Shown here in pieces: positions 48,873 through 54,869 of a stretch of DNA of 64,000 bases. The notes beneath the pieces were generated by a model, which had not been told where the DNA came from, made no database searches, and saw only the letters and a program-made list of their open reading frames with translations. A program made the translations under genes and the position numbers. This DNA comes from Octopus vulgaris (taxonomy: Eukaryota): NCBI GenBank assembly GCA_951406725.2, contig OX597843.1, positions 7,316,001 through 7,380,000 of the forward strand, given 5' to 3'. Position 1 is the first letter of the stretch, and every line of letters begins with the position of its first letter.

Positions 48873-49898
48873 TTAATCATCAATGTACTTTCCCTGATTA
48901 TCTATGACTTCCTTCCATCTATTTACAATTTTTTTAATCCTATCAATGTAAAACTCTTTTGGTTTCAAAGCGAAGAACTCTGAAATGTCGGTTTCGACCT
49001 CCTCATGGCTTGCGACAGTTATGTCCCCCAAATGATTCTGTAAACTACGAAACAAATGGTATTCAGAAGGAGCAAGGTCGAGAGAATAAGGTGGATGAGG
49101 AATGTTTTCCCAACCAAGTTCTTCGATCTTCTGTGATGTGACCTTTGCAGTGTGGGGTCGCACATTGTCCTGATGAAACATCACTCCTTTTCGATTCACT
49201 AAGGTGGGTCTTTTTCCTTCAAAGCTTGGTTCAAACACTCTAATTGCTGACAGTAGACTTGAGCATAGATTGTTGCATTAGGTAGTAACAATTCAAAGTG
49301 AATTCCACCTTTGCAATCCCACAAGACAGAGAGAAGGACCTTATCCCCATGAAGTTCTCTTCTCAGTTGTGATTGAGCTTTTTCCCTTTTACCAAGCCAC
49401 TGTTTACGACTTTTAACATTTCGACAGAAGATACATTTTTCGTCACCAGTCACAAGTCTATCCAAAAAGGGTGAAATGAGTTCGCGAGAATGGAGAGAAG
49501 AGTAGATGTCAATTCGGGATTTGCGGTTGCTTTCGCACAATTCATGAGGCACCCGTTTACCAAGCTTAGGAACCTTTCCAAGTTGTTGAAGATGACGATG
49601 AACAGTTGTATGGTTTGAACTAAGCTTTATTGCCAATTCTTCAACTGATAATGCAGGATTTTCTTCAAGTAATGACTCAAGGAGCTTATCATCCAACTCG
49701 ACTGGTCGTCCTGTTCGATCTTCATCTTCAAGGCTGAAATCTCCACTTCTAAGTTTTGCAAACCATCTTCTGCAAGTTCTTTCATTCGAGCATTCTTTCC
49801 CATAAACTGAGTGTATGTTTCGAGTCGCTTCGGCTGCAGAGTTTCCTTTTTTGTACTCGTAAAGCATTGTGCTTCAAATGCTCTTTGGATACTTTCAT
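48873..49898 (-). pseudogene. Mariner (Mos1/Hsmar-like) transposase pseudogene with two frameshifts
   Basis: MKVSKEHLKH/MLYEYKKG..CRRWFAKLRSGDFSLEDEDRTGRP..RVPHEL..LVTGDEK..LKEK/RPTLVNRKGVMFHQDNVRPH..HPPYSLDLAPSEYHLFRSLQ..RWKEVIDNQGKYIDD*. Frameshifts lie near 49868 and 49210. Confidence 0.96.
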
Positions 49899-53454: not shown

Positions 53455-54153
53455 TGGCTGTGTGGTAAGTAGCTTGCTAACCAACCACATGGTTCTGGGT
53501 TCAGTCCCATTGCATGGCATCTTGGGCAAGTGCCTTCTGCTATAGCCCCGGGCCGACCAATGCCTTGTGAGTGGATTTGGTAGACGGAAGCTGAAAGAAG
53601 CCTGTCGTATATATGTATATATATATATGTATGTGTGTGTGTTTGTGTGTCTGTGTTTGTCCCTCTAGCATTGCTTGACAACCGATGCTGGTGTGTTTAC
53701 GTCCCCCGTCACTTAGCGGTTCGGCAAAAAGAGACCGATAGAATAAGTACTGGGCTTACAAAAAGAATAAGTCCCGGTGTCGAGTTGCTCAACTAAAGGC
53801 GGTGCTCCAGCATGGCCGCAGTCAAATGACTGAAACAAGTAAAAGAGTAAAAGAGTATACTCTTTTACTCTTTTACTCTTTTACTAGTTTCAGTCATTTG
53901 ACTGCGGCCATGCTGGAGCACCGCCTTTAGTCGAGCAACTCGACACCGGGACTTATTCTTTGCAAGCCCAGTACTTATTCTATCGGTTTTATATCGGACA
54001 ACCAGCATCGGTTGTCAAGCACAGCGGTACAAACACAGACACACAAACACATACACATACATATATACGACAGGCTTCTTTCAGTTTCCGTCTACCAAAT
54101 CCACTCACAAGGCTTTGGTCGGCCCGGGGCTATAGTAGAAGACACTTGCCCAA
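53455..54153. mobile_element. Tail-to-tail inverted pair of SINE A copies
   Basis: The plus copy 53455-53855 and the minus copy 53860-54153 meet at the palindrome gagtatactc. Confidence 0.88.
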
Positions 54154-54178
54154 GATATATATATATATATATATACAC

Positions 54179-54228
<50 letters not shown>

Positions 54229-54335
54229 CATATTCAGGGTGAATACTTGATAACTGTAAGCACCTGTATATGCCAGTTAGTGGTGTAGGTGATAGAGTTT
54301 ATTTATCAAAAGAAAAACAGGATGCAAAGGATTTA

Positions 54336-54422
54336 GCGGTACATATGTTTCTGGCTGTATTAGACAGTTTATATCAATGCATAATTGATGTAATATGTAT
54401 GTCAATAGCCTTCTTCAGCCGC
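54336..54422 (-). ncRNA. Type I hammerhead ribozyme motif (left arm of palindrome)
   Basis: GCGG-CUGAAGA-AGGCU..AGCCA-GAAA-CAUAUG-UA^-CCGC. Confidence 0.68.
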
Positions 54423-54637
54423 GCACAATTACCACACCAAGGACATGTATTACATTATAAGTTTGGGAAAAAGACGATTTTCGTTGGGGATGCTAATCCT
54501 CATAATCGTATATACTCGAGTGAAAAACGGTATGGACGCTTTGTTTTTGTTTTGGTGTCTCGCTCTGCTGTATACGACTATGAGGATTTGCATCCCCAAC
54601 GAAATTCGCCTTTTTCCCAAAAGTGTGGTAATTGTGC

Positions 54638-54725
54638 GCGGCTGAGGAAGGCTATTGACATACATATTACATCAATTATGCATTGATATAAACTGTCTAA
54701 TAAAAGCCAGAAACATATGTACCGC
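54638..54725 (+). ncRNA. Type I hammerhead ribozyme motif (right arm of palindrome)
   Basis: GCGG-CUGAGGA-AGGCUAUUGACA..UGUCUAAUAAAAGCCA-GAAA-CAUAUG-UA^-CCGC. Confidence 0.68.
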
Positions 54726-54753
54726 TAAATCCTTTGCATCCTGTTTTTTCTCT

Positions 54754-54798
<45 letters not shown>

Positions 54799-54814
54799 AA
54801 TATGTATGTATATG

Positions 54815-54869
<55 letters not shown>

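What the first reader, a model, noticed from the sequence alone, without database searches (positions are those of the whole stretch)
54310..54755. About 440-bp palindrome carrying mirror-image hammerheads on both strands
Seen: 54310-54437 pairs with 54623-54755, and 54463-54512 pairs with 54571-54621 around a ~60-nt loop. Each outer arm encodes a canonical-core hammerhead (CUGAAGA or CUGAGGA, stem III CAUAUG, extended stem II). The arms differ at the variable N7 core position. Inference: these are inverted PLE terminal repeats. A transcript from either strand would contain one ribozyme plus its antisense, so folding would compete between long dsRNA and self-cleavage.
Basis: partly seen in the sequence, partly recalled or inferred. 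Interest (0 to 1): 0.72.

Follow-up and report, generated by a model that had tools for sequence, protein, structure and literature searches.

The report
Back-to-back Hydra-Penelope ends in TA repeat
The palindrome is real, but it is an ordinary stump of a common Penelope-type jumping gene: two cut-short copies of the element's ribozyme-bearing end inserted back to back in a TA repeat, likely made during insertion by copying the element's RNA once from each cut DNA strand; nearly every such pair examined has the extra 'tail' on exactly one side.

Summary
The palindrome and both hammerhead motifs are real. The element is larger than reported (54233-54755): the left arm carries a 67-nt tail that the right arm lacks. 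Each arm is the 3' pseudo-LTR of an abundant Penelope-like family. Following the tail in other copies leads to an RT + GIY-YIG ORF with Hydra-clade motifs, intact (836 aa) in a younger sister subfamily. Head-to-head inverted copies with a hammerhead on each strand are in print (Craig 2021, Cervera 2014), and this scan found the same thing before on other DNA.

The ribozyme is a minimal dimer-type motif (2-bp stem III, A·A at 10.1-11.1). The N7 difference is a common family polymorphism. Real folding competition is unlikely: on either strand the antisense arm is made first, and the hairpin is about -309 kcal/mol against about -14.

What the family adds: 47 of 48 head-to-head pairs have the tail on exactly one arm, the tail does not track the longer arm (16:18:1), and partner arms come from one source. 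This favours two separately primed cDNAs over simple fold-back. A second locus shares this exact junction with the tail on the other side (unexplained). Expression and cleavage are not shown.

The parts
54233..54512 (-). Left arm: 5'-truncated PLE 3' end (pLTR) with the full tail
   Evidence: 94.7% identical over 281 nt to the tail arm of L066, which runs upstream into a GIY-YIG coding remnant
54233..54299 (-). 67-nt tail, present on this arm only; in ORF-bearing copies it continues into the 5' UTR and ORF start
54336..54422 (-). Minimal type I hammerhead motif (CUGAAGA; A·A at 10.1-11.1; 2-bp stem III; predicted cleavage after 54340)
   Evidence: activity untested
54438..54460 (-). 23-nt family segment kept in the left arm and deleted from the right arm
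54506..54529 (+). Inversion junction, shared with exactly one other locus (G000:C30:7141778, L031)
54513..54570 (+). Loop: ordinary family sequence belonging to the right arm, which reaches about 60 nt further 5' than the left arm
54516..54755 (+). Right arm: 5'-truncated PLE 3' end with the short end (no tail), slightly eroded
54638..54725 (+). Minimal type I hammerhead motif (CUGAGGA; predicted cleavage after 54721)
   Evidence: activity untested
54156..54232 (.). (TA)n target flank, left; no target-site duplication can be made out
54756..54868 (.). (TA)n target flank, right

Best explanation
This is a doubly 5'-truncated, head-to-head insertion of a Penelope-like retrotransposon with Hydra-clade protein motifs in a (TA)n repeat; its mirror symmetry likely arose at insertion, when both target strands were nicked and each primed a cDNA, and the two hammerhead motifs are likely passengers of the duplicated pLTR, predicted to be shut off by the long hairpin. 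Shown: the arms are the family's pLTR; the family links to an RT + GIY-YIG ORF; 3' ends fall at two sites; head-to-head pairs have one tail end and one short end; partner arms come from one source. Inferred: a (probably dimeric) RT-EN nicks both strands of the self-complementary (TA)n; one cDNA starts at the distal site (tail) and one at the proximal site (short end); both stop early and are joined at their truncated ends. Odds: identity about 0.93; two-cDNA mechanism about 0.6, against fold-back about 0.3.
For: Abundance: 1302 and 1714 first-look candidates; 182 exact matches of a 24-nt core pattern, of which 24 of the first 100 listed sit in 12 head-to-head pairs (counted by eye). ORF link: the tail continues into RT ORFs; intact 836-aa ORFs in L150 and L151; L149 (pLTR 88-89% identical) has an inverted copy plus a whole frameshifted ORF; L066 (94.7%) has an endonuclease remnant 76% identical in amino acids to that ORF; tandem plus inverted units in L152 and L155. 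Ends: of 146 arms, 75 reach the tail end and 49 stop at one short site; a TA run follows in 58 of 63 short and 47 of 57 long ends. Pairs: 35 of 35 have exactly one tail arm; 12 of 13 in a set chosen without the tail, and the 13th has a third, short-ended fragment outermost. The longer arm is the tail arm in 16 pairs, the short arm in 18, equal in 1. Partner arms differ at 4.2 sites against 14.2 for random arms, and only 11 of 89 differences are shared family polymorphisms, against 54% for random pairs. In print: a PLE protein nicks and extends both strands and starts at two sites bounding the tail (PMC11167929); inverted 5'-truncated copies with a one-sided tail are typical (PMC8557442, PMC3846280).
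Against: No intact ORF was found for the window's own subfamily; the intact ORFs belong to a sister subfamily only 77-81% identical in the pLTR. Pfam gives no RT match for the ORF and only a weak GIY-YIG match (E 0.045). Clade placement rests on motifs and a by-eye comparison with published sequences, not a tree. About 22 of the 35 pairs (hand tally) were fetched with tail-containing queries, which forces one tail arm but not a short partner. Several junctions look like near-perfect fold-backs (L064, L108, L003), and later deletions at palindrome centres could scramble which arm is longer. The junction shared with L031, with the tail on the opposite side, is not explained by one insertion event.
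Confidence: 0.8

Rival explanations
1. Same element, but the mirror arises by fold-back (self-priming) of one strand, giving a hairpin intermediate that the endonuclease resolves with a staggered cut across the tail; later deletions near the centre create the loop.
For: Proposed in PMC3846280 (passages read). A staggered cut would give exactly one tail per unit. Partner arms are near-identical. Some junctions are near-perfect palindromes, and the window's junction can be read as a TCGA-centred fold-back with a later ~60-nt deletion (my reading).
Against: A fixed cut polarity predicts that the loop always sits on the same arm; observed 16:18:1, with kilobase asymmetries both ways (L066 3172 vs 172; L073 18 vs 1112). 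It needs frequent large secondary deletions. Both-strand priming is shown in vitro for another PLE (PMC11167929).
Confidence: 0.3
2. Palindromic stumps are themselves re-mobilised as non-autonomous units; this locus and L031 derive from one palindromic template.
For: The exact junction occurs at only 2 places in 2.8 Gb, 229 kb apart on one contig. Both loci share a left-arm variant seen in 1 of 39 scored arms, the window's own. The flanks show no homology beyond TA runs and common repeats.
Against: Other junctions look unique by eye among the 35 pairs, apart from L121/L122, which look like a DNA-level inverted duplication. Tail side and N7 are swapped relative to the junction, which needs an extra inversion or template switch. 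This region is a junction hot spot. An old local DNA duplication with eroded flanks is not excluded.
Confidence: 0.3
3. The palindrome is a selected RNA device in which dsRNA formation and self-cleavage compete.
For: All 11 invariant core nucleotides are intact in both arms, and in 112 of 131 family arms. The fourth pair of stem II covaries (UA 70, CG 23, UG 15 of 110).
Against: That conservation belongs to the source elements, not to this locus. The arms here carry private changes and a deletion like any decaying copy. The antisense arm is transcribed first, and the energy gap is about 20-fold. Arm lengths and junctions vary freely across pairs.
Confidence: 0.03

Closest known systems
Hydra clade of Penelope-like elements (Craig et al. 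2021, PMC8557442), incl. Hydra-1_Obim and Penelope-13_HM
   Same: C-terminal GIY-YIG, DKT, CxCX5C linker, CxxC and CxH, (TA)n target, hammerhead in the pLTR. Penelope-13_HM is listed with a 5'-truncated inverted copy and a hammerhead on each strand (Files S1, S2). Many Hydra hammerheads have an unpaired base on both sides of stem II.
   Different: A different family from Hydra-1_Obim (different hammerhead and protein, by eye). Unit about 4.7 kb with a ~2-kb repeat-rich 3' UTR (published: generally under 3 kb). RWA instead of RWK. Tail 67 nt (published 30-40). Stem II region 60 nt long.
Dual minimal hammerheads of truncated PLEs (Cervera and de la Pena 2014, PMC4209133)
   Same: Minimal type I motifs with short stem I and small palindromic stem III; pairs found about 100-700 bp apart on opposite strands; the two cores here are 224 bp apart.
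   Different: That paper reports a highly conserved G10.1-C11.1 pair. Here the position reads A·A in 78, A·C in 30 and A·G in 2 of 110 arms.
PAc Poseidon element of Anolis (Frangieh et al. 2024, PMC11167929)
   Same: Two reverse-transcription start sites bounding a tail, AT-rich target, both strands nicked and extended; this matches the two end classes here.
   Different: Different clade. In PAc the ORF starts inside the hammerhead and the tail is coding; here the ORF starts about 85 nt beyond the tail. In the parts read, the paper does not tie the two sites to inverted pairs.
Non-LTR retrozymes (bioRxiv 10.64898/2026.07.22.740005; PMC7229834, search listing only)
   Same: Non-coding, type I hammerhead, PLE-related.
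   Different: Retrozymes are head-to-tail tandem repeats. This is head-to-head, with variable 5' truncation of an ORF-bearing element.

Membership tests
EN+ Penelope-like element | Single ORF with RT and C-terminal GIY-YIG endonuclease linked to this pLTR | tested here: met
   836-aa ORFs in L150, L151; YRDD at 357-360, YIG at 730; weak Pfam GIY-YIG; closer copies L149 and L066 carry broken ORFs. The window copy itself has no ORF.
EN+ Penelope-like element | pLTRs in tandem and inverted arrangement, with 5' truncation | tested here: met
   L152, L155, L149; 35 head-to-head pairs and 7 tandem neighbours
EN+ Penelope-like element | Optional tail at one end of the unit | tested here: met
EN+ Penelope-like element | Hammerhead motif within the pLTR | tested here: met
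Hydra clade | DKG changed to DKT | tested here: met
   ADKT at 125-128; D-K-T/S in 25 of 28 relatives of 680 aa or more, ADKG in 0
Hydra clade | CxCX5C linker; CxxC and CxH in the EN; no CCHH motif | tested here: met
   CxCX5C at 696, CxxC at 793, CxH at 823; one Cys inside the GIY-YIG core, by inspection
Hydra clade | N-terminal RWK motif | tested here: inconclusive
   RWA at 39, at the matching place
Hydra clade | Insertion into (TA)n | tested here: met
   105 of 120 short or long ends followed by a TA run
Hydra clade | RT phylogeny groups with Hydra reference elements | not testable with these tools
   reference sequences seen only as paper text; compared by eye
Active hammerhead ribozyme | Invariant core nucleotides and three stems | tested here: met
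Active hammerhead ribozyme | Paired 10.1-11.1 (usually G-C) | tested here: not met
   A·A in both arms; unpaired in 110 of 110 arms in this register
Active hammerhead ribozyme | Self-cleavage | not testable with these tools
   needs an assay
Non-LTR retrozyme | Head-to-tail tandem units, each with a hammerhead | tested here: not met
   head-to-head pair; one copy in the window

The most novel reading that the evidence does not exclude
Insertion of this family is obligatorily two-handed: one RT of a dimer always starts at the distal site and the other at the proximal site, so every inverted unit gets exactly one tail whichever cDNA runs further; and the resulting palindromic stumps can be copied again as units (window and L031).
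Probability: 0.3. Interest if true: 0.5.

Novelty: new member of a known kind. Interest (0 to 1): 0.22.

Why it matters
As a locus it matters little: it is one of many decaying stumps. The family is useful for an open question, how PLEs make inverted ends and tails. It offers many natural insertion products with a near-strict one-tail rule, plus an intact 836-aa sister ORF for an in vitro test of two-strand priming against fold-back. Read-through of such stumps would make long dsRNA, a possible editing or small-RNA substrate (not shown).

Tried and rejected
Rfam on the window and on the element: no hammerhead family matched; the hits were simple-repeat noise. The repeat finder was swamped by microsatellites. 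Walking upstream gave only a long non-coding 3' UTR; PLE ORFs beside L024, L028 and L067 were rejected as separate insertions beyond TA runs. Pfam on the whole ORF: no RT match. Expression: no RNA holder on record was listed. Contigs of three guessed-RNA runs and one run of unknown kind show family sequence, none spanning the element. The A>G and T>C differences also stand in the unknown-kind run, so there is no evidence for or against expression or editing. The first structure count was misregistered by one column and redone; on 8 rows it does not beat shuffles (183 of 500), so the covariation claim rests and may be a single event between subfamilies. The sigma-70 scan is irrelevant to a eukaryote. 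N7 as a designed arm difference: rejected. Arms copied from different subfamilies: not supported (4 of 25 pairs skipped because truncation spoiled the comparison). No earlier scan notes by sequence or place.

Full report
Observation. The inverted repeat is real. The outer arms 54313-54437 and 54623-54748 differ by two substitutions and one gap. The inner arms 54461-54512 and 54571-54622 differ at 5 of 52 sites. A 23-nt segment is missing on the right, and 58 nt are unpaired in the middle. The + strand folds at -308.8 kcal/mol, z -32. Each arm holds a type I hammerhead motif, at 54336-54422 (-) and 54638-54725 (+).

Family. The window lies in a 2.8-Gb genome, likely an octopus (inferred from the repeat content as recalled, the likeness to Hydra-1_Obim, and earlier scan notes). 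DNA searches gave 1302 and 1714 first-look candidates, of which 40 each were scored. A 24-nt core pattern matches exactly 182 times. Upstream sequence is a long, repeat-rich 3' UTR. Walking down the tail reaches an ORF. L150 and L151 hold intact 836-aa frames in a unit of about 4.7 kb, and L152 and L155 show tandem plus inverted copies. That subfamily is 77-81% identical to the window's arm. Closer copies link the window's own subfamily to coding sequence: L066 (94.7% over 281 nt) runs up to an endonuclease remnant, L121, L122, L123 and L137 (92-94%) continue towards the ORF, and L149 (88-89%) has a whole frameshifted ORF with an inverted copy. The protein has DKT, CxCX5C, CxxC, CxH, YRDD and YIG, and 380 representatives match at E up to 1e-30. 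These are the Hydra-clade features of PMC8557442 section 11, and the sequence agrees by eye with Hydra-1_Obim in its supplement. Pfam is almost blind to it.

Ribozyme. All 11 invariant core positions are intact in 112 of 131 arms (15 of 146 dropped for lacking the 5' flank). N7 is A 97, G 16, T 13, gap 5. In 110 arms read directly, stems I and II are paired in 102-109 cases per pair and the fourth pair of stem II covaries (UA 70, CG 23, UG 15), but 10.1-11.1 is never paired. Stem III is 2 bp around a palindromic loop, the dimer type. PMC4209133 found that a single minimal motif did not cleave detectably; PMC11167929 found that the PAc motif needed protein and that cleavage was not required for insertion in vitro. 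In an isolated arm the hammerhead fold is the minimum-energy structure of the core region, with a predicted share of only 0.09-0.14. Because the arms are head-to-head, any transcript across the palindrome makes the antisense arm first, so the ribozyme is predicted to be trapped (inference).

How the mirror forms. Among 146 distinct arms the 3' ends are bimodal: 75 reach the tail end and 49 stop 52 nt after G12. All 35 head-to-head pairs have exactly one tail arm, but about 22 of them (hand tally) were fetched with tail-containing queries. I therefore fetched 13 further loci chosen without the tail. Twelve have one tail and one short end; L169 has two tails plus an outermost short-ended fragment; in L176 the short arm is only 54 nt and set apart. 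Twelve of 13 has a one-sided binomial p of about 0.002 at even odds (hand calculation). The longer arm is the tail arm in 16 pairs, the short arm in 18, equal in 1. In 21 of 25 comparable pairs, partner arms differ at 4.2 sites against 14.2 for random arms, with few shared polymorphisms (11 of 89 against 54%), so both arms come from one source element. The best fit is two cDNAs primed from the two nicked strands at the two start sites and joined at their truncated ends, in line with both-strand extension in vitro (PMC11167929). Fold-back with staggered resolution and later deletion (PMC3846280) remains possible.

Against, and unexplained. No intact ORF was found in the window's subfamily (search not exhaustive). 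Some junctions look like fold-backs. The window's junction recurs once, 229 kb away, with a shared rare variant, unrelated flanks, and the tail and N7 on the opposite side. RNA data were uninformative.

Comparison and novelty. [quoted passage not shown] Penelope-13_HM is listed with hammerheads on both strands. Dual motifs 100-700 bp apart on opposite strands were reported in 2014. Six earlier notes of this scan reached the same reading on other DNA, seen after my own reading was recorded. Five paper searches showed no count of the one-tail rule or of its independence from arm length; that is the only addition. Papers seen: PMC8557442 passages, section 11, supplement part 2 and search hits; PMC11167929 parts 1-2 of 4 and passages; PMC4209133 parts 1-2 of 4; PMC3846280 passages; bioRxiv 2026.07.22.740005 part 1 of 5; PMC7229834 listing only. 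Verdict: new member of a known kind, interest 0.22.

Noticed in passing
L031 (G000:C30:7141778) and window 54506-54529: Same junction and same rare left-arm variant, unrelated flanks, but tail side and N7 allele are swapped relative to the junction (in both loci the tail arm has A and the other arm G). Possibly a flipped centre or a re-mobilised palindrome.
   Followed up: partly
window 47012 (-) and 41357 (-): Two further hammerhead-like motifs with palindromic stem III, unrelated in sequence to this family; likely other PLE ends.
   Followed up: no
window 48876-49873 (-): Broken transposase-like frames resembling mariner (label recalled, no call).
   Followed up: no
window 53519-54156: Two copies of a common SINE-like repeat form an 80% inverted pair next to the finding ('SINE' recalled).
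   Followed up: no
L144/L145 (G000:C4:23559185-23559657): Inverted plus short tandem units spanning stem III, tail and ORF start, apparently without the 5' half of the hammerhead core.
   Followed up: no
L121/L122 (G000:C28:11578875-11584271): Two head-to-head pairs with the same junction face each other 4.9 kb apart; looks like a DNA-level inverted duplication.
   Followed up: no
L067 500-2540 (-): A different, degraded PLE with its own hammerhead lies just downstream of a family copy.
   Followed up: no
   Followed up: partly
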